Source of the DNA: a virus
Taxonomy: Duplodnaviria > Heunggongvirae > Uroviricota > Caudoviricetes
IMG/VR virus record: IMGVR_UViG_3300029068_000019
Reading direction: 5' to 3' (one strand)
Length of the DNA stretch: 12,528 nucleotides
Positions 1 through 12,528 of the stretch are shown one piece after another. How positions within the stretch are numbered: position 1 is the first letter of the stretch; each line of letters opens with the position of its first letter. Under the pieces are notes generated by a model. The model did not search any database. It was not told the DNA's origin and worked only from the letters and a program-made list of their open reading frames with translations. A program made the translations under genes and the position numbers.

Positions 1-115
1 TGTGGCGGCCTCAGTCCGGAACAATTTGAAAACCAGAACCTCGCTTAGGCCTGTGTCCATATTACGTGGGTAGGATCAGGTCGCTGTCTTCACAGCTTAC
101 GAACCTGAGGAGTAA
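1..115 (+). pseudogene. hok-family (HokD/RelF-like) toxin gene, 3' terminal remnant
   Basis: Frame 2 ends ...VAVFTAYEPEE then TAA at 113-115, matching the HokD/Gef C-terminus as I remember it. The same frame has an in-frame TAG at 71-73 and the upstream translation does not look like a Hok transmembrane segment, so only the last ~13 codons are recognisable. 5' end is cut by the window edge. Confidence 0.4.
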
Positions 116-183
116 GAGACCCGGCGAGGGAGAAATCCCTCGCCACCTCTGATGTGGCAGGCATCCTCAACGCACTCGCACTT

Positions 184-210
184 AACCCGCTTCGGCGGGT
201 TTTTGTTTTT
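184..210 (+). terminator. Rho-independent terminator downstream of the hok remnant
   Basis: 7-bp GC-rich stem AACCCGC/GCGGGTT around a TTCG tetraloop, followed by TTTTGTTTTT. A second stable 8-bp hairpin lies at 123-144 (GGCGAGGG/CCCTCGCC), typical of structured hok mRNA 3' ends. Confidence 0.7.
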
Positions 211-223
211 ATTTTCAACGCGT

Positions 224-253
224 TTGAAGTTCTGGACGGTGCCGGAATAGAAT
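224..253 (+). promoter_or_regulatory. Candidate sigma70 promoter for rem
   Basis: -35 TTGAAG (224-229), 18-bp spacer, -10 TAGAAT (248-253), about 80 nt upstream of the rem ATG. Hexamer match only. Confidence 0.3.
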
Positions 254-331
254 CAAAAATACTTAAGTAGCGCGCAGGGATAAGAGGGATGGTCCCTTAA
301 AGGGGAGAGCTAATTATCCGGAAGGATTCTG

Positions 332-583
332 ATGATGAACATCGAAGAACTGCGTAAAAATTTTTGTGAAGATGGCCTCTATGCTGTGTGCGTTGAAAAT
401 GGAAATCTTGTTAGTCATTACCGCATTATGTGTTTGCGAAAGAATGGGGCTGCGTTAATTAATTTTGTGGATGGTCGAGTGACAGACGGATTTATCTTGC
501 GCGAAGGTGAGTTTGTCACTTCATTACAGGCACTGAAAGAGATCGGAATAAAAGCAGGCTTTTCAGCTTTTGCAGAAGAATAA
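332..583 (+). CDS. rem: Rem-like small prophage protein (83 aa, function unknown)
   Basis: 83-aa ORF with tandem ATG ATG start and GGAAGGA Shine-Dalgarno 6 nt upstream. Length, MMNIEELRK N-terminus and position between hok and the ydfU-like gene match rem of the Qin prophage as I recall it. Confidence 0.75.
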   Translation: MMNIEELRKNFCEDGLYAVCVENGNLVSHYRIMCLRKNGAALINFVDGRVTDGFILREGEFVTSLQALKEIGIKAGFSAFAEE

Positions 584-649
584 ACTCATCTACAATCTTG
601 CGCGGGGCTGAACTCCCGCTGAGTAACACCGTGCCACCGGAGAAAACCG

Positions 650-928
650 ATGGCACGCAACGTAAAATATTACAATTCTGATAATTCGCCCGTTCTTGTC
701 TGCACGCACGAGCGGTATTCTCACGCATTCAAGTCTGAATGGTTCCAACACCCTCCATGCACTGAAGAGCAGGCTGAATGGATAATTCAGTGTTACCGCA
801 GGCGCGGATACGAGGTTAAGAAAGCCCTTAGTCTCGACTACCGTCACTGGATAATCTCAGTCAGATTGCCTTACTCCGAACGCCCACCGCGTCCGTCCCG
901 TACATTCCAGCAACGCATCTGGAGGTAA
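650..928 (+). CDS. Hypothetical small prophage protein (92 aa), translationally coupled to the downstream DUF968 gene
   Basis: ATG preceded by GGAGAAAA. The stop TAA at 926-928 lies inside the GGAGGTAA ribosome-binding site of the next gene, whose GTG is at 930. No family recognised. Confidence 0.5.
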   Translation: MARNVKYYNSDNSPVLVCTHERYSHAFKSEWFQHPPCTEEQAEWIIQCYRRRGYEVKKALSLDYRHWIISVRLPYSERPPRPSRTFQQRIWR

Positions 929-929
929 C

Positions 930-1979
930 GTGCGGGTATTACTTCGACCTGTTCTGGTACCGGAACTTGGGCTGGTGGTCGTTAAGCCGGGCCGTGAATC
1001 CATGCCGGTATTCCACAATACCCGGGTACTGGTGGAGCCGGAACCGAAAAGCATGCGTAATCTGCCGTCCGGGGTCGTTCCTGCCGTTCGCCAGCCGCTG
1101 GTGGAAGACAAAACATTGCTGCCGTTTTTCAGTAACGCACGGGTAATTCGTGCTGCTGGTGGTGCTGGTGCATTGTCTGACTGGCTGTTGCGCCATATTA
1201 AATCCTGCCAGTGGCCACACGGCGATTATCATCACAGCGAAACCGTTATTCACCGATATGGTACCGGCGCAATGGTGTTGTGCTGGCACTGCGACAACCA
1301 GCTGCGTGACCAGACATCCGAATCACTCGAGCAACTTGCTCATCAAAACCTGTCAGCATGGATGATTGACGTCATCGGTCACGCAATAAGCGGTACGCAG
1401 GAGCGTGAATTATCTCTGGCTGAATTATCCTGGTGGGCGGTCCGCAATCAGCTGGCGGACGCGCTACCGGAAGCGGTATTACGTCGCTCGCTGGGATTAC
1501 CAGCGGAAAAAATCTGCTCGGTGTACCGCGAAAGCGACATCGTACCGGGAGAGCAGACCGCCACCAGCATATTGAAACAGCGCACAAAAAATCTTGCACC
1601 GTTGCCTCACGCCCACCAGCAACAAAACCCATCACAGGAAAAGACGGTGGTAAGCATCACCGTTGATCCAGAGTCTCCGGAATCTTTCATGAAGCTGCCT
1701 AAACGTCACCGGTGGGTTAAGGAGAAATACACACGCTGGGTTAAGACACAGCCGTGTGCTTGCTGCGGTATGCCAGCCGACGATCCGCATCATCTGATTG
1801 GTCACGGGCAGGGCGGAATGGGAACCAAAGCACATGATCTCTTTGTTTTGCCTTTGTGCAGAAAGCATCACGACGAGTTGCATACGGATACCGTGGCATT
1901 TGAAGAGAAGTATGGCTCCCAACTGGAGCTGATTTTTCGATTTATCGATCGCGCGCTGGCAATTGGTGTGCTGGCCTAA
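930..1979 (+). CDS. ydfU: DUF968 / YdfU-like prophage protein with C-terminal HNH-like zinc-finger nuclease motif
   Basis: 349-aa ORF, GTG start with GGAGGT Shine-Dalgarno. C-terminus carries CACCG...HHLIGHG...C..HH.ELH, a Cys/His arrangement like the NinG/Rap-type HNH fold. Length and position upstream of Q match ydfU of Qin. Confidence 0.8.
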
Positions 1980-1996
1980 TTTTGTGGAGTAAGTTG

Positions 1997-2374
1997 ATGC
2001 GTGATATTCAGATGGTTCTTGAGCGTTGGGGGGCATGGGCGGCTAATAATCATGAAGATGTGACCTGGTCGTCCATTGCCGCCGGTTTTAAGGGATTAAT
2101 TCCTTCAAAAGTAAGATCTCGTCCGTAATGCTGTGACGATGACGCGATGATCATTTGTGAATGTATGGCTCGCCTGAAAAAAAACAACAGCGATTTACAT
2201 GATTTATTGGTGGACTATTATGTCGGCGGCATGACTTTTATGGCGCTTGCACGTAAGCATGGGCGATCTGATTGTTGGGTTGGCAGGATGCTCCAGAAAG
2301 CTGAGGGCGTAGTGGAGGGCATGCTGATGGTGTTGGATCTCCGATTGGAGATGGATGCTGATTGTTCGAAATAA
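1997..2374 (+). pseudogene. Late antiterminator Q (short QuuD-like family) interrupted by in-frame TAA at 2126-2128
   Basis: ATG 1997 with GGAG 7 nt upstream gives [43 protein letters not shown], then TAA, then in the same frame [18 protein letters not shown]...LEMDADCSK to the stop at 2372-2374. Joined length is 125 codons, the size of short prophage Q proteins, and sits immediately upstream of a promoter/terminator pair. A single C-to-T change in a CAA (Gln) codon would create this stop. Confidence 0.6.
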
Positions 2375-2386
2375 TTAAAGGAAAAG

Positions 2387-2415
2387 TTGCTGTCTGATTT
2401 TCATTAGTCTAACAT
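2387..2415 (+). promoter_or_regulatory. Candidate late promoter (pR'-like) directly after Q
   Basis: -35 TTGCTG (2387-2392), 17-bp spacer, -10 TAACAT (2410-2415). Position mirrors lambda pR'. Hexamers are imperfect. Confidence 0.3.
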
Positions 2416-2472
2416 TTTAAATGTTGGAATCGCAACGTAGTTATTATCATATAACAGCTTATTTCCTGATTT

Positions 2473-2501
2473 AGCCAGCCTCCCCAAAGGCTGGTTTTTT
2501 T
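2473..2501 (+). terminator. Rho-independent terminator (tR'-like) about 60-80 nt downstream of the candidate late promoter
   Basis: 7-bp stem CCAGCCT/AGGCTGG (2475-2481 with 2488-2494), CCCCAA loop, then a seven-T run at 2495-2501. Together with the promoter this resembles the lambda pR'-tR' short-transcript unit on which Q acts. Confidence 0.75.
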
Positions 2502-2529
2502 CTAATAAGTATCATTTCGGGTGGGGATT

Positions 2530-3054
2530 TTATTGTTTAACCCATAATAGTTCATTGACATTGAATCCCAACTTTTGAGCGGTACGCACATAGTCTGCTT
2601 TTACATTATCTGGAATAGTTTGGGTCCTTGCCAGAATCCATAGGTATTCTCTGTTCGGACCACTGACAAGAGCATACTTATACTCATCATCCAGTTTGAT
2701 TACATTATAGCCACCATAGAAGGGGCCAAAAAACGAAACTTTCAACGCTGCAGTTTTAGTATCTCCAGTAAAGTATGCTTTACCTTCGCTCTCGCTCCAT
2801 TTGTTTTTCGTTGGATCGTATCCACGGTTAAGTACGCGAATCCCTCCGTCGTTCCGTTTTTCATAAGTAGCGCTGACCTGTTCCAGACCACGTTCGAACC
2901 AGTTCTCGAGGCGAGCTATTTCATACCATTTTCCGAGGTAGCGGTTGGCGTCAAAATTTGTAATCGGCTGCACACCTTTAGGTGGTGTCGGGGCCTTACA
3001 TGCTATAAGAGTGAAAGAGAGTGCAATGCCAGTCAACACAGGCCATAACTTCAT
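2530..3054 (-). CDS. Blc-like bacterial lipocalin, predicted outer-membrane lipoprotein
   Basis: 174 aa. Signal peptide with lipobox LIAC (Cys19). Motifs NFDANRYLGKWYEIAR, KAYFTG, LKVSFFGPFYGGYNVI and YLWILART match E. coli Blc almost residue for residue in the conserved regions. AGGA Shine-Dalgarno 6 nt upstream on the - strand. Confidence 0.85.
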   Translation of the reverse strand: MKLWPVLTGIALSFTLIACKAPTPPKGVQPITNFDANRYLGKWYEIARLENWFERGLEQVSATYEKRNDGGIRVLNRGYDPTKNKWSESEGKAYFTGDTKTAALKVSFFGPFYGGYNVIKLDDEYKYALVSGPNREYLWILARTQTIPDNVKADYVRTAQKLGFNVNELLWVKQ

Positions 3055-3246
3055 AATAAATCCTGTACTTTTGATAGTTGAGAGTAAGTATGAAAGATAG
3101 ATGAGTACGACCGATCACTTAAAGAACTTTCCTACTATATTAGGAATAGTCAATAACAGAAAAATTGTCAGTGATGAAGCCAGAAAGGCAATTTAGTCCG
3201 TGCACTACAAAGTTTATGTGTTAATGAATTAGTCAAGGGGGAGGAA

Positions 3247-4206
3247 ATGATAAAAAAACCTGTGATTGGGATCAGCGGTTGTTTGGGCGGTTCTGCTGTT
3301 CGTTTTGATGGTGGTCACAAAAGAGATGACTTTTTAATGGACAAATTAGTGGAATGGGTAACATTCAGACCAGTATGTCCGGAAATGGCTATAGGGCTGC
3401 CAGTTCCGCGTCCTGCTCTACGACTTGTGCGCTCGAAGCAAGGAAATATACGGATGTGTTTCAGCCACGACCAGAATGAGGATGTGACAGAGAGAATGAC
3501 AGAGTTTAGTCGTTCTTATATGGACAAATTAAAGGATGTATCGGGGTTTGTGGTTTGTGCTAAATCTCCCAGCTGTGGCATGGAGCGCGTGCGTGTCTAT
3601 GATGAAAATGGTAATCGAGGTCGTAAAGATGGAGTGGGACTATTTACGAGCACTTTGATGGAAAAGTTTTCCTGGCTACCGGTTGAAGAGGATGGGCGAT
3701 TACATGATCCAGTGCTTCGTGAGAATTTTATTGAAAGAGTTTTTGCTTTGCATGAGCTCAATCACCTTTACAAGGAGAAATTATCAAGAAGAGAGTTATT
3801 AGCTTTTCATAGTCGTTATAAGCTTCAGTTGTTGGCGCATAGCCAGGCAGGCTATAAAGATATGGGACCATTTGTGGCTGCAATACACGAGTGGGCGGAC
3901 CTTGAATCATACTTTGAGGTGTATCGTGATAATCTGATGGCGATTCTCAGAAAACCAGCATCACGTAAAAATCACACGAATGTGCTGATGCATATACAAG
4001 GGTATTTTAGTAATTACTTAAGTACACGCCAGCGTAAAGAGTTGAGCGAGGTTATACTTAACTATCGCTTTGGCACATTGCCTCTTCTTGCGCCGTTGAC
4101 TCTGCTGAAGCATTATCTGGGTGAGTATCCTAATGATTACTTGCTTACACAGAACTACTTCGATCCCTATCCGGAAGAACTGGCTCTAAGACTGATGGTG
4201 AATTAA
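3247..4206 (+). CDS. DUF523 (TudS-like thiouracil desulfidase fold) fused to DUF1722 (YbgA-like)
   Basis: 319 aa with GGGGGAGG Shine-Dalgarno. N-terminus MIKKPVIGISGCLGGSAVRFDGGHK is the DUF523 signature. Cys12, Cys44 and Cys104 sit where the three [4Fe-4S] ligands of TudS-type enzymes are reported, from memory. The C-terminal ~160 aa is YbgA/DUF1722-like. Confidence 0.8.
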   Translation: MIKKPVIGISGCLGGSAVRFDGGHKRDDFLMDKLVEWVTFRPVCPEMAIGLPVPRPALRLVRSKQGNIRMCFSHDQNEDVTERMTEFSRSYMDKLKDVSGFVVCAKSPSCGMERVRVYDENGNRGRKDGVGLFTSTLMEKFSWLPVEEDGRLHDPVLRENFIERVFALHELNHLYKEKLSRRELLAFHSRYKLQLLAHSQAGYKDMGPFVAAIHEWADLESYFEVYRDNLMAILRKPASRKNHTNVLMHIQGYFSNYLSTRQRKELSEVILNYRFGTLPLLAPLTLLKHYLGEYPNDYLLTQNYFDPYPEELALRLMVN

Positions 4207-4612
4207 CTGTATGCGATATCATCTGAAAGTGATGAGTTCCTGTATGCAGGATATTTACAATCGTAAAAACTACGCTATGATGCTCATAGTGTCAGTTTTT
4301 ATAAAAATCCTGTTCACGCTAAAGAAGACATTGAGATGCAATTTAATGTTGGTAAACATACCAGCCCCAAAAGATTTTATTCAATCTGTTTTTATATGAA
4401 GATATTTCAAGTGAATATTAAGAGCATATAATATTATTATTGCACGCAGCTATTATAATATAACAGATTAGTTTAATGATTTGTTTTTTGTGAGTTAAAC
4501 ACATGGTTTTATAGTTGTGATGCAATGAGATTTTCCTTATTGTTGAACTGGCGAATATTGATTTTCCACCTATACTTACCTGGTGTAACCCCAATGATAT
4601 CAGGTGGATAAT

Positions 4613-5326
4613 ATGCCATACATATGTTCTATCATTTTGGTGTTGAACTCGTTTGGTGTCCGAATTGGTAAAGAAGATATTTTGTTTAAAAAAGGAAATG
4701 CTGTCCTCATTGAATACAATTTAAAAGATCTTTTTTCGTCAAATACAGATCATCTAATGATCGTAGATGTTGAGGAGAAAACAGTTAATGATTTCTTTAA
4801 AAACTACACACTCTCACCTTTTTCTGTAAGAAGGTTTTATCCGTCATACTTGATAGTAGAATGTGAAGATTTTTCATTGTTAAAGAACTTGGTTGCATGC
4901 TTGAATTGTGATAGCAAAACCGTGGATGTAGTTAGAAATCAAATATCACTTGCATGTCTTGCTGTCTTATCTTCAGAGAAAATAGTGCAAAGTTTTTTGT
5001 TCGGAAGTCTTAATAGCTTAGGTTGTAAAGTTAAGGCTATTATTCACTCGGATATCTCTGCGTCATGGAGACTTTGTGATATATCTTCAAGATTATATAT
5101 GAGCGAGAGTTTGTTAAAAAGAAAATTAAAAGACGAAGGATTATCGTTTAGTAAATTAATTCTTGAAGAACGAATGATGATGGCGCAAAGATTATTGATC
5201 TACAGTAACCATACTGTCGGCAAGGTGGCGGGAATATGCGGGTATGACAATGCATCATATTTTGTAAGTGTTTTTAGAGGATATTTTGGTGTGCCTCCGC
5301 ACCAATATTTATCAAGATTTTCTTAG
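4613..5326 (+). CDS. AraC/XylS-family transcriptional regulator (AppY/GadX/PatE-like)
   Basis: 237 aa from ATG 4613 (AGGTGG Shine-Dalgarno 5 nt upstream; the ORF track starts at GTG 4604). The C-terminal ~100 aa carries the two AraC helix-turn-helix units (...LLKRKLKDEGLSFSKLILEERMMMAQRLL...GYDNASYFVSVFRGYFGVPPHQY). Gene and its upstream region are strongly AT-rich. Confidence 0.8.
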   Translation: MPYICSIILVLNSFGVRIGKEDILFKKGNAVLIEYNLKDLFSSNTDHLMIVDVEEKTVNDFFKNYTLSPFSVRRFYPSYLIVECEDFSLLKNLVACLNCDSKTVDVVRNQISLACLAVLSSEKIVQSFLFGSLNSLGCKVKAIIHSDISASWRLCDISSRLYMSESLLKRKLKDEGLSFSKLILEERMMMAQRLLIYSNHTVGKVAGICGYDNASYFVSVFRGYFGVPPHQYLSRFS

Positions 5327-5394
5327 AAGATATGATGTGATGGCATTTTATAAAGTTATTTTTTGAAGTGTAAGATTATACGATATTTTTAGCT

Positions 5395-5426
5395 ACGCCA
5401 GAATAATTGCTGGCGTTTTTCTTTTT
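5395..5426 (+). terminator. Rho-independent terminator after the AraC-family gene
   Basis: 7-bp stem ACGCCAG/CTGGCGT, 8-nt loop, then TTTTTCTTTTT. Confidence 0.65.
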
Positions 5427-5516
5427 GAATAGATGTTCGGGCCTTACGCTAATGTAACTTCTTTCCTTCTTCGAACCAAACCGTGTACACCATCCGTTAT
5501 CTGCGGAGGTGAGGCT

Positions 5517-5732
5517 ATGAAATCCATGGATAAGTTAACAACGGGCATCGCCTACAGCACCTCTGCAGGCAGTGCTGGCTACTGGTTTTTACAGTTGCTC
5601 GATAAAGTCACGCCCTCACAGTGGGCGGCAATAGGTGTATTGGGTAGTCTGGTATTTGGCATGCTGACGTATCTGACAAATCTTTATTTCAAGATTAAAG
5701 AAGACAGGCGTAAGGCTGCGAGAGGAGAGTAA
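5517..5732 (+). CDS. Class II holin, phage 21 S-like pinholin with dual-start motif
   Basis: 71 aa beginning [24 protein letters not shown], i.e. Met1-Lys-Ser-Met4 dual start as in S21. Two transmembrane segments and a charged C-terminus ([13 protein letters not shown]). GGAGGTGAGG Shine-Dalgarno upstream. The track's extension back to 5433 has no ribosome-binding site and is discounted. Confidence 0.85.
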
Positions 5733-5736
5733 TCCA

Positions 5737-6044
5737 ATGACTCAAGACTATGAACTGGTTGTGAAAGGAGTCCGTAATTTTGAGAATAAAGTTACGGTAA
5801 CTGTAGCCTTACAGGACAAAGAACGCTTTGACGGTGAAATTTTTGGCCTGGATGTCGCCATGGACCGTGTTGAAGGAGCTGCGCTGGAGTTTTATGAGGC
5901 AGCAGCCAGAATGAGCGTCCGGCAAGTCTTCCTGGAAGTAGCAGAAAAATTGTCAGAAAAAGTTGAGTCTTATCTGCAGCATCAGTACTCCTTTAAGATT
6001 GAAAATCCTGCCAATAAGCACGAGCGTCCTCATCATAAATATCT

Positions 6045-6048
<4 letters not shown>
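5737..6048 (+). CDS. Hypothetical 103-aa protein embedded between holin and endolysin (YdfR-like by position and size)
   Basis: AGGAGAG Shine-Dalgarno. Starts 4 nt after the holin stop and its TGA overlaps the endolysin ATG (ATGA). Acidic, no transmembrane segment. Qin has a 103-aa ydfR in the same slot, from memory. Confidence 0.6.
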
Positions 6049-7072
<1,024 letters not shown>

Positions 7073-7323
7073 ATTAATATTAAATCGGATTATTTTTAGC
7101 GCTGAATGTGAAATTTAAATAAAAAGGACTCTTCCATGAGTCAAAATCCTTGAAATCTTAAGGGTAAGATAAAAGGTCATTAGACAGAATGACACGTTTT
7201 ATTAATAAATAAAGCTATTGTTTCATTCGTGTGTTTTTCTTTACAAAAGTAATCCTTGCTATGGTTGGTTAATCATGCGTTAATGGTGTTCTGGTTTGTT
7301 ACAAAATTATCTGAAGCAGTCAT

Positions 7324-7332
7324 TGTTATAAT
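7324..7332 (+). promoter_or_regulatory. Candidate extended -10 promoter (TGtTATAAT) for the cold-shock gene, implying a ~100-nt leader
   Basis: Perfect TATAAT at 7327-7332 with TG at 7324-7325, inside a long AT-rich untranslated region. No convincing -35. Confidence 0.3.
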
Positions 7333-7432
7333 TTTATTATTTGTACCTCTTGAGATTTCCTTGTTGGTTTTTCTCTCTGATATTTTTTTTCGGACCATTC
7401 TGCCCAAGGGCTAACTTCTTCAAAAGGTAATA

Positions 7433-7648
7433 ATGATGTCTAACAAAATGACTGGTTTAGTGAAATGGTTTAACCCTGAAAAAGGTTTTGGTTTCATCAC
7501 GCCGAAAGATGGTAGCAAAGATGTGTTTGTGCATTTCTCAGCTATTCAGAGCAACGATTTCAAAACGTTAACTGAGAATCAGGAAGTCGAATTTGGTATT
7601 GAGAACGGACCTAAAGGCCCTGCAGCTGTTCATGTAGTGGCACTTTGA
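7433..7648 (+). CDS. CspA-family cold-shock protein (CspB/CspI-like)
   Basis: [24 protein letters not shown]...VFVHFSAIQ carries the RNP1/RNP2 motifs. The true start may be the second ATG at 7436 (MSNKMTG...). AAGG Shine-Dalgarno upstream. Confidence 0.9.
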
Positions 7649-7852
7649 GGTAGAAAATATTACAAACCATATTCACTTTAGATGCCCGTGTTGCCATGGT
7701 TCTCAGTATAGAACATCATCTTTTGATGTTTCTGACAGAAATCCTTTCGGGGCAAAATGTATCTTTTGTAAATCAATGATGATTACATTTGATAATATTT
7801 CACAATACTTAAATGTTAGCCATCTGTCGTTAGATTTAAGAAAGTGAAAATG

Positions 7853-12356: not shown

Positions 12357-12457
12357 TGGCAATTCTTGATGATGTGATTGGCGTTTTTTCACCAGGATGG
12401 AAAGCGGCAAGGCTGCGTTCCCGAGCGGTGATCCAGGCTTATGAGGGGCTTTGTTGA
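12356..12457 (+). pseudogene. Portal protein gene (lambda gpB family), N-terminal 33 codons only
   Basis: MAILDDVIGVFSPGWKAARLRSRAVIQAYEGLC then TGA. The N-terminus looks like lambda-family portal proteins. A portal should run about 500 codons, and no frame downstream continues recognisably. Confidence 0.55.
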
Positions 12458-12528
12458 ATAAATAAGATTTCGTGCGAACGACCCTGTAGCTGGCTGGATT
12501 TTCAGGCAATACGCACGCTTTCTGGCAT

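What the first reader, a model, noticed from the sequence alone, without database searches (positions are those of the whole stretch)
3247..4206. Prophage-borne DUF523-DUF1722 fusion with a TudS-like three-cysteine iron-sulfur signature
The N-terminal domain has the DUF523 signature and cysteines at 12, 44 and 104, the spacing reported for the [4Fe-4S] ligands of TudS-type thiouracil desulfidases. It is fused to a YbgA-like DUF1722 domain. An enzyme acting on thiolated pyrimidines or thio-nucleotides carried as phage cargo is unusual. It could touch s4U/s2U-type modifications or thio-base analogues, or be a plain metabolic moron. The function of the fusion is, to my knowledge, not established.
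Basis: partly seen in the sequence, partly recalled or inferred. Interest (0 to 1): 0.6.

Follow-up and report, generated by a model that had tools for sequence, protein, structure and literature searches.

The report
Prophage copy of RudS tRNA desulfidase
This gene in a defective E. coli lambdoid prophage encodes RudS, a characterised iron-sulfur enzyme that removes the sulfur from 4-thiouridine in tRNA, and a 92%-identical phage copy has already been assayed, so the finding is real but already explained.

Summary
The ORF at 3247-4206 (+) is real. It encodes a 319-aa TudS/DUF523 (PF04463) plus DUF1722 (PF08349) fusion and lies between the Q antiterminator and the lysis genes of a Qin-type E. 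coli prophage.

The cluster ligands are Cys12, Cys44 and Cys110 (SPSCG motif). Cys104 is a non-conserved residue; 104 is the number of the third ligand in stand-alone TudS.

The function of the fusion has been established since 2024. TudS-DUF1722 proteins are RudS, erasers of tRNA 4-thiouridine (PMC11417400). [quoted passage not shown] All catalytic and tRNA-contact residues I mapped are identical between the two.

The blc-like lipocalin / rudS / AraC-like cassette sits in the same place in every lambdoid prophage and phage I examined. About 20% of complete E. coli genomes carry the gene, although reviews say E. coli lacks RudS.

Two things remain open: what the enzyme does for the phage or lysogen, and how it is expressed. 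In this window Q carries an amber stop.

Verdict: already known, low interest.

The parts
3247..4206 (+). rudS coding sequence (319 aa plus stop). It is identical over window 2400-5400 to E. coli TA8571, where the gene is annotated WP_000592549.1 'YbgA family protein'.
3265..3693 (+). N-terminal TudS / DUF523 catalytic domain (residues 7-149)
   Evidence: Pfam PF04463, E 5.8e-40. phmmer hit to TudS 6z92. AF2 model: the five best Foldseek PDB hits are all TudS, prob 1.00, TM(target) 0.64-0.68.
3280..3282 (+). Cys12 codon, predicted [4Fe-4S] ligand 1 (TudS Cys10)
   Evidence: Cys in 139/141 representatives
3376..3384 (+). Cys44-Pro45-Glu46. Cys44 is ligand 2 (TudS Cys43). Glu46 is the catalytic base (TudS Glu45, RudS_KT Glu51).
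3409..3411 (+). Arg55 codon, equivalent to RudS_KT Arg60, which orients the catalytic Glu
   Evidence: Placed by offset from the Cys positions and by 139/141 conservation; inferred mapping.
3565..3576 (+). Ser107-Pro108-Ser109-Cys110 (SPSC motif): the two catalytic serines and ligand 3 (TudS Ser101, Ser103, Cys104)
3556..3558 (+). It is not conserved in the family.
   Evidence: Cys in 11/141 representatives, Lys in 80/141
3820..4173 (+). C-terminal DUF1722 helical domain (residues 192-309). In RudS_KT this is the tRNA anticodon-arm binding domain. It contains Ser239-Arg240, equivalent to RudS_KT Ser243-Arg244.
   Evidence: Pfam PF08349, E 9.4e-40; published mutagenesis. Residue mapping is by a constant offset of 4 and is inferred.
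3055..3246 (.). Divergent blc-rudS spacer. It is more conserved (96% mean column identity) than the coding sequences of the same alleles, and the scan found no strong sigma-70 consensus in it.
2530..3054 (-). Blc-type outer-membrane lipocalin gene, first gene of the three-gene cargo cassette
   Evidence: Pfam Lipocalin_2, E 7.5e-43. NCBIfam Blc 312.6 bits, above the cutoff of 267. phrog_2809.
4613..5326 (+). AraC-family (YdeO/GadX-like) regulator gene, third gene of the cassette. The mechanical ORF starts at GTG 4604; RefSeq starts it at ATG 4613.
1997..2374 (+). Q antiterminator gene immediately upstream of the cassette. In this window it is interrupted by an amber codon at 2126-2128 (CAG to TAG, Gln44).
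2473..2496 (+). Terminator-like hairpin plus T-run about 100 nt after Q (tR'-like), at the left edge of the cassette
   Evidence: consensus scan only
5395..5416 (+). Terminator-like hairpin plus T-run at the right edge of the cassette, just before the holin gene (5517-5732)

Best explanation
The gene encodes RudS, a tRNA 4-thiouridine (s4U8/9) desulfidase, also called an eraser.

Mechanism, taken from the characterised family. The N-terminal TudS domain holds a [4Fe-4S] cluster through Cys12, Cys44 and Cys110. The fourth iron has no protein ligand and binds the sulfur of a flipped-out s4U. Glu46, positioned by Arg55, Ser107 and Ser109, activates water to attack C4. The sulfur leaves on the cluster as a [4Fe-5S] intermediate and uridine remains. 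The C-terminal DUF1722 helical domain (including Ser239/Arg240) grips the anticodon arm, which turns a small-molecule desulfidase into a tRNA enzyme. Removing s4U makes tRNA insensitive to the UVA-induced s4U8-C13 crosslink and shortens the UVA growth delay.

What is shown: the domain architecture, the conserved residues, and 92% gapless identity to an assayed phage enzyme. What is inferred: activity and Fe-S content of this exact protein.

In the phage the gene is the middle of a three-gene AT-rich cargo cassette (Blc lipocalin, RudS, AraC-like regulator) inserted between Q/tR' and the holin. In a functional phage the Q-modified late transcript would have to read through it, which is the same position stx occupies in Stx phages; this is inferred from lambdoid architecture. 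In this window Q carries an amber stop, and the closest genomes show a decayed Qin-type element. Here any expression must therefore come from a promoter of its own in the highly conserved blc-rudS spacer (inferred).
For: Both Pfam domains score at E about 1e-40.

TudS is the only PDB sequence hit, and it aligns C12, C44, E46 and SPSC110 with TudS C10, C43, E45 and SPSC104. The AF2 model (pLDDT 75) hits only TudS structures at prob 1.0.

C12, C44, C110, E46, R55, S107 and S109 are 95-99% conserved in 141 representatives at 35-56% identity.

PMC11417400 shows that TudS-DUF1722 fusions lower tRNA s4U 4.7- to 26-fold in E. coli. It also shows that purified RudS_KT binds and desulfurates tRNA in vitro, that Cys, Glu, Ser and Arg mutants are dead, and that RudS_KT overexpression reduces the UVA growth delay (abstract). 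RudS_vir from phage 1H12 (Cys12/44/110) was among the active enzymes.

The window protein is 293/319 identical to 1H12 gp66 with no gaps and no change at any residue listed above. It is 97% identical to the copy in phage IdasGreatGrand.

Purifying selection is evident: dN/dS is 0.13 against the 1H12 allele, and 1064 of the 1136 E. coli genomes that carry the gene have at least 80% of it.
Against: No assay exists for this exact allele. There are 26 substitutions relative to RudS_vir.

In the paper RudS_vir showed lower tRNA desulfidation than RudS_ST at comparable protein levels, and the shortest lag on 4-thiouracil of all RudS tested. tRNA may therefore not be its only or best substrate.

All published in-vivo data come from overexpression. 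Native expression from a prophage has not been shown. No convincing sigma-70 promoter was found upstream, and Q is inactivated here.

The AF2 model is weak at residues 14-25 and 291-319.
Confidence: 0.9

Rival explanations
1. The phage enzyme works mainly on small molecules, as stand-alone TudS does. It would desulfurate free 4-thiouracil, 4-thiouridine or 4-thio-UMP released by tRNA turnover (salvage or detoxification), and its tRNA activity would be secondary. This is closest to the first reader's reading.
For: The catalytic domain is a bona fide TudS domain. Among the six RudS tested, RudS_vir gave the shortest lag on 4-thiouracil in the uracil-auxotroph assay. It also showed lower tRNA s4U removal than RudS_ST at comparable soluble protein levels.
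Against: No RudS, RudS_vir included, supported growth the way TudS did, and none grew on 2-thiouracil. RudS_vir did lower tRNA s4U significantly, whereas stand-alone TudS did not. The DUF1722 domain is under the same purifying selection as the rest of the protein, and its tRNA-contact residues S239/R240 are retained.
Confidence: 0.07
2. The gene is inert baggage: a hitch-hiking fragment of a decaying cryptic prophage, not expressed and without any function for host or phage.
For: In this window Q has an amber stop. The closest genomes show a truncated portal gene and missing tail genes. No strong promoter was found. IS insertions occur in or next to the cassette in some strains.
Against: The ORF is intact with every catalytic residue. 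dN/dS is 0.13. At least 80% of the gene is present in 1064 of 1136 carrier genomes. It is carried by phage genomes deposited as complete: 1H12, ten related Lambda_ records and IdasGreatGrand. The upstream spacer is more conserved than the coding sequence.
Confidence: 0.03

Closest known systems
RudS_vir (Escherichia phage 1H12 gp66, YP_009909557.1; Jamontas et al. 2024, PMC11417400)
   Same: Both are 319 aa, and they align without gaps at 92% identity. Both have the Cys12/Cys44/Cys110 triad. The neighbours are the same: the Q gene, then blc-like (-), rudS (+), an AraC-like gene (77% aa identity) and the holin. RudS_vir lowered tRNA s4U when expressed in E. coli.
   Different: There are 26 substitutions, none at catalytic or mapped tRNA-contact residues. 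The window copy sits in a Qin-type prophage with a Q amber mutation, not in a complete lambda-like phage genome.
RudS_KT (Pseudomonas putida PP_0741) and RudS_ST (Salmonella LT2 STM1389 / ORF319), the chromosomal RudS enzymes
   Same: Same two-domain architecture and the same catalytic set (Cys x3, Glu, Ser x2, Arg). RudS_ST is listed with the same Cys numbering, 12/44/110. Enterobacterial chromosomal homologues, including a Salmonella one, are 69-76% identical over the full length.
   Different: Chromosomal copies lie in light or photo-oxidative-stress contexts. Examples are photolyase with a MerR/LitR regulator, or the end of a SnoaL / SDR / amine-oxidase / DUF1365 / CFA-synthase / DUF2878 / DUF3833 operon in Citrobacter and Klebsiella. 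The window copy has no such neighbours. It lies in an AT-rich phage cargo cassette (38% GC against about 50%) next to an AraC-type regulator.
TudS (stand-alone DUF523 thiouracil / 4-thio-UMP desulfidase, PDB 6z92-6z96)
   Same: The fold and active site of the N-terminal domain match. The three Cys, Glu, two Ser and Arg17 (query R19) align.
   Different: TudS is a single domain of about 150-170 aa that works on bases and nucleotides and does not lower tRNA s4U in vivo. The window protein carries the extra DUF1722 domain. Sequence identity is only about 26%.
E. coli YbgA (b0707, stand-alone DUF1722)
   Same: The C-terminal 155 residues match the YbgA model NF007549 (E 4.7e-56). RefSeq names the protein 'YbgA family'.
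   Different: The score of 189 bits is below the equivalog cutoff of 237. YbgA has no catalytic domain and had no effect on tRNA s4U.

Membership tests
RudS (TudS-DUF1722 tRNA s4U desulfidase) | N-terminal TudS/DUF523 domain and C-terminal DUF1722 domain in one polypeptide | tested here: met
   PF04463 at residues 7-149 and PF08349 at residues 192-309, each E about 1e-40
RudS (TudS-DUF1722 tRNA s4U desulfidase) | [quoted passage not shown] | tested here: met
   C12, C44 and C110 align with TudS C10, C43 and C104. They are 97-99% conserved in 141 representatives and carry the same numbers as RudS_vir and RudS_ST.
RudS (TudS-DUF1722 tRNA s4U desulfidase) | Catalytic Glu, two Ser and Arg (RudS_KT E51, S111, S113, R60) | tested here: met
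   E46, S107, S109 and R55 are present and 95-99% conserved. R55 was mapped by offset, without a direct alignment to RudS_KT.
RudS (TudS-DUF1722 tRNA s4U desulfidase) | DUF1722 residues that contact the anticodon region (RudS_KT S243, R244) | tested here: inconclusive
   S239-R240 lie at the expected offset and are invariant among enterobacterial homologues. In 141 diverse representatives position 239 is Thr/Ser in 82% and position 240 is Arg in 57%.
RudS (TudS-DUF1722 tRNA s4U desulfidase) | Removes s4U from tRNA and contains an Fe-S cluster | not testable with these tools
   Shown experimentally for the 92%-identical RudS_vir (in vivo) and for RudS_KT (in vivo and in vitro) in PMC11417400. 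Not shown for this allele.
TudS (stand-alone thiouracil / 4-thio-UMP desulfidase) | Single-domain protein of about 150-170 aa | tested here: not met
   319 aa with an additional DUF1722 domain
TudS (stand-alone thiouracil / 4-thio-UMP desulfidase) | TudS fold with the Cys3 / Glu / Ser2 active site | tested here: met
YbgA (E. coli b0707 equivalog) | Score at or above the NCBIfam NF007549 cutoff; stand-alone DUF1722 protein | tested here: not met
   189.1 bits against a cutoff of 237; the match covers residues 161-315 only
Anti-phage defence systems (PADLOC) | Match to any PADLOC model for RudS or its two cassette neighbours | tested here: not met
   0 families for all three proteins

The most novel reading that the evidence does not exclude
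The prophage RudS is not just a copy of a host stress gene. It would be a phage-adaptive editor of the tRNA epitranscriptome. Because it sits on the Q-dependent late transcript, it would be switched on at induction, which UV often triggers. It would then strip s4U from host tRNA so that UVA crosslinking, uncharged-tRNA accumulation and the stringent response do not choke late protein synthesis. Alternatively, in lysogens it would make the UVA or s4U-dependent physiology of E. coli strain-dependent. About one complete E. coli genome in five would then behave unlike K-12, contrary to the textbook statement that E. coli lacks RudS.
Probability: 0.2. Interest if true: 0.55.

Novelty: already known. 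Interest (0 to 1): 0.2.

Why it matters
As a discovery it matters little, because both the enzyme family and a near-identical phage copy are published.

Two practical points remain.

(1) Annotation. RefSeq, PHROGs and the phage records still call the protein 'YbgA family', 'unknown function' or 'hypothetical', although it can be named RudS.

(2) Both the RudS paper and a 2026 review state that E. coli lacks RudS and use this to explain its UVA and ppGpp behaviour. Yet 1136 of 5426 complete E. coli genomes carry this gene on lambdoid prophages, 1064 of them with at least 80% of its length. UVA growth-delay and s4U phenotypes in E. coli may therefore depend on the strain.

Why a temperate phage keeps a tRNA-modification eraser next to its lysis genes is a real open question, though a modest one.

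Tried and rejected
- A PADLOC scan of RudS, the lipocalin and the AraC-like protein found nothing, so there is no support for a known defence system.
- I tested whether the phage lipocalin derives from the unannotated 175-aa gene of the chromosomal rudS operon in Citrobacter. There is no similarity (BLASTP E 1.8), so the cassette is not simply a piece of that operon.
- A profile (A1) search of the PDB aligned only residues 6-58 to TudS. The mapping of the third Cys therefore rests on the single-sequence alignment, the exact SPSCG motif, family conservation and the published table.
- The promoter scan found no sigma-70-like site in the blc-rudS spacer. Across the region promoter-like sites are no more frequent than in shuffled sequence (13 found against 11.1 expected), so I claim no promoter.
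- The inverted-repeat search found nothing in the blc-rudS spacer (3055-3246) that suggests an operator.
- Rfam and ARAGORN found no RNA element or tRNA near the gene; the only hit is the cspA thermoregulator at 7278-7694.
- dN/dS against Citrobacter and Klebsiella homologues could not be computed because synonymous sites are saturated.
- The AF2 coordinates are not exposed, so Cys-Cys distances in the model could not be measured.
- The RudS_KT sequence was not retrieved, so residue equivalences to it are by offset.

Full report
**1. The observation**

The ORF listing gives an ATG ORF at 3247..4206 on the + strand, 319 aa. A purine-rich Shine-Dalgarno stretch precedes it.

Pfam assigns residues 7-149 to PF04463 (E 5.8e-40). 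This is the former DUF523, now named '2-thiouracil desulfurase'. Residues 192-309 go to PF08349, DUF1722 (E 9.4e-40). The two-domain fusion is therefore real and far beyond chance.

The protein has cysteines at 12, 44, 71, 104 and 110. The only PDB sequence relative is TudS (6z92). In that alignment:
- TudS Cys10 pairs with query C12.
- Cys43-Pro-Glu45 pairs with C44-P45-E46.
- The TudS motif G-S101-P-S103-C104-G pairs with query K-S107-P-S109-C110-G.

I aligned the protein with 140 full-length representatives of 50%-identity clusters (35-56% identical to the query, taken from a search that found 6522 relatives at E<=0.001). In that alignment C12, C44 and C110 are Cys in 139, 139 and 137 of 141 sequences. 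Position 104 is Cys in 11 and Lys in 80, and position 71 is hydrophobic. E46, R55, S107, P108 and S109 are 95-99% conserved.

So the triad exists, but it is 12/44/110. The number 104 is the TudS numbering, and this protein happens to have an unrelated cysteine at that position.

An AlphaFold2 model built from 28 homologues (mean pLDDT 75) finds only TudS structures in the PDB (five hits, prob 1.00, TM on target 0.64-0.68). Everything else is at E>0.3.

**2. What it is**

The function of the fusion is not open. Jamontas et al. (Nucleic Acids Res 2024, PMC11417400) named TudS-DUF1722 proteins RudS and reported the following:
- Mutating the cluster cysteines, or Glu51, Ser111, Ser113 or Arg60 of RudS_KT, abolishes activity.
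- Purified RudS_KT binds tRNA and removes about 80-95% of s4U in vitro.
- Modelling plus mutagenesis place the DUF1722 domain on the anticodon arm; S243M and R244M are the most damaging mutants.
- Overexpression of RudS_KT reduces the UVA-induced growth delay (abstract).

Phage 1H12 appeared independently in my DNA search. Its gp66 aligns to the window protein over all 319 residues without a gap, at 293/319 identity. None of the 26 differences falls on C12, R19, C44, E46, R55, K106, S107, S109, C110, S239 or R240. The copy in phage IdasGreatGrand is 97% identical.

The window protein is thus an allele of an enzyme that has been assayed. The paper says all tested RudS variants were active on tRNA. 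RudS_vir showed lower tRNA desulfidation than RudS_ST at comparable protein levels, and the shortest lag on 4-thiouracil in a uracil-auxotroph rescue test. None rescued on 2-thiouracil.

**3. Surroundings**

The window is E. coli DNA. It is 99.7-99.8% identical over 12.4 kb to many complete genomes, and 2400-5400 is 100% identical to three strains (TA8571, XD35, A65EC).

In strains H2 and TA8571 the element is the Qin-type prophage between rspB and ydfJ. It carries integrase, dicB, hokD, rem, ydfU, Q, the cassette, essD-ydfR-rrrQ-rzpQ, cspI and terminase, followed by a truncated portal gene and no tail genes.

Within the window the order is:
- ydfU / DUF968 (930-1979);
- Q (1997-2374);
- a Blc-type lipocalin on the minus strand (2530-3054; NCBIfam Blc 312.6 bits against a cutoff of 267);
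- rudS;
- an AraC-family regulator (4613-5326; best NCBIfam model YdeO, below its cutoff);
- holin (5517-5732), ydfR, endolysin and Rz;
- cspI with its Rfam thermoregulator;
- small and large terminase.

The three cargo genes are AT-rich (38% GC over 2400-5430, against 47-54% in the flanking phage genes). Terminator-like hairpins at 2473-2496 and 5395-5416 bracket them.

The same cassette sits directly after the same 126-aa Q and before the holin in lambda-like prophages with O/P/ren/nin genes and in phages 1H12 and IdasGreatGrand. In one strain an IS1 replaces the regulator.

This is the classic lambdoid cargo (moron) site. In a working phage the Q-modified late transcript has to cross it to reach the lysis genes. 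That is an inference from lambdoid architecture and was not tested.

In this particular window Q is broken. Codon 44 is TAG through a C-to-T change at nt 2126, relative to strains H2 and TA8571. Late read-through is therefore unlikely here.

The 192-nt blc-rudS spacer has 96% mean column identity across five alleles. The rudS coding sequence is 91.4% identical between the window and 1H12. This suggests a constrained regulatory region, but the scan found no sigma-70 consensus there.

**4. Distribution and selection**

The gene is present in 1136 of 5426 complete E. coli genomes, and 1064 of them have at least 80% of its length. Nearly all copies are chromosomal, in three identity bands.

Only 12 of 50,697 phage records hold a full-length copy, all of them lambdoid coliphages. 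This agrees with the 'ten viral sequences, all Siphoviridae' mentioned in the paper. All three cassette proteins already have PHROG families of unknown function.

dN/dS is 0.13 against the 1H12 allele and 0.20 against IdasGreatGrand.

Chromosomal homologues in Citrobacter, Klebsiella, Enterobacter, Serratia, Salmonella and others are 69-76% identical. In Citrobacter braakii and Klebsiella they close a SnoaL / SDR / amine-oxidase / DUF1365 / CFA-synthase / DUF2878 / DUF3833 operon. I take this to be a photo-oxidative-stress type cluster, on my own reading; the paper describes RudS genes as lying in light-responsive operons. The phage copy has lost that context.

**5. Mechanism and rivals**

Best explanation (0.9): a RudS tRNA s4U eraser that uses a Cys12/Cys44/Cys110 [4Fe-4S] cluster, Glu46 as base, and DUF1722 for tRNA binding. 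Architecture, residues and near-identity to an assayed enzyme are shown. Activity of this allele, its native expression and its benefit are inferred.

Rival 1 (0.07): the viral branch prefers small thiolated pyrimidines. This is suggested only by the relative behaviour of RudS_vir in two overexpression assays.

Rival 2 (0.03): dead cargo. This is contradicted by purifying selection, by the high proportion of carrier genomes with a near-complete gene, and by presence in phage genomes deposited as complete.

**6. Comparison with the known, and verdict**

The protein meets every sequence-level criterion for RudS that I could test. It fails the criteria for stand-alone TudS (single domain) and for the YbgA equivalog (189 bits against a cutoff of 237).

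I rate it already known. The family is characterised and a 92%-identical phage copy has been assayed; only the database names lag behind.

One point goes beyond the literature. Both the RudS paper and a 2026 review state that E. coli lacks RudS. About a fifth of complete E. coli genomes carry it on prophages.

The biological role of a tRNA-modification eraser in a temperate phage is untested. UV both induces lambdoid prophages and crosslinks s4U-tRNA, which makes a role in protecting late translation attractive, but this is speculation.

Interest 0.2.

Noticed in passing
window 1997-2374 (+), stop at 2126-2128: The Q antiterminator gene has an in-frame amber codon at position 44 (CAG to TAG, one C-to-T change relative to strains H2 and TA8571). 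Late-gene antitermination is therefore probably lost in this prophage.
   Followed up: yes
window 3055-3246: The divergent spacer between the lipocalin gene and rudS has 96% mean column identity across five alleles, and its first 120 nt or so are almost invariant. The rudS coding sequence is only 91.4% identical between the window and 1H12. This suggests a constrained regulatory region, yet no sigma-70 consensus was found in it.
   Followed up: partly
window 4613-5326 (+): The AraC-family regulator is AT-rich (33.5% GC) and its best NCBIfam models are YdeO, HilD and GadX, all below cutoff. It resembles the prophage-encoded AraC-like regulators of E. coli (PsrA/PsrB, PatE, AppY) that control acid resistance and type III secretion. 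It is 77% identical to its counterpart in phage 1H12 and 47% to regulators in phages mEp332 and ev099. I did not test whether it regulates rudS or host genes.
   Followed up: partly
window 2530-3054 (-): A Blc-type outer-membrane lipocalin (above the NCBIfam Blc cutoff) is carried as phage cargo and always travels with rudS. It is unrelated to the unannotated 175-aa gene of the chromosomal rudS operon in Citrobacter.
   Followed up: partly
E. coli genome collection: rudS is present in 1136 of 5426 complete E. coli genomes (1064 with at least 80% of the gene). The RudS paper and a 2026 review both state that E. coli lacks RudS. The BL21 derivative Nico21(DE3) keeps a 147-nt 5' remnant annotated as a 2-thiouracil desulfurase family protein.
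   Followed up: partly
L005-L009 (Citrobacter braakii and Klebsiella contigs), genes at 110-6960: Chromosomal RudS homologues are the last gene of a conserved nine-gene operon: SnoaL, SDR, amine oxidase, DUF1365, CFA-synthase-like, DUF2878, an unannotated 175-aa protein, DUF3833 and RudS. I take this to resemble photo-oxidative-stress clusters.
   Followed up: no
window 7278-7694 (+): An Rfam cspA thermoregulator (110 bits, gathering score 78) covers the 5' leader and coding region of the prophage cold-shock gene cspI (7433-7648).
   Followed up: no
window 1-77 and 12447-12528: The best single-piece genome matches (99.7-99.8%) stop at 78 and 12446. The window ends therefore differ from those strains, possibly because of different left-arm and portal-gene variants.
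   Followed up: no
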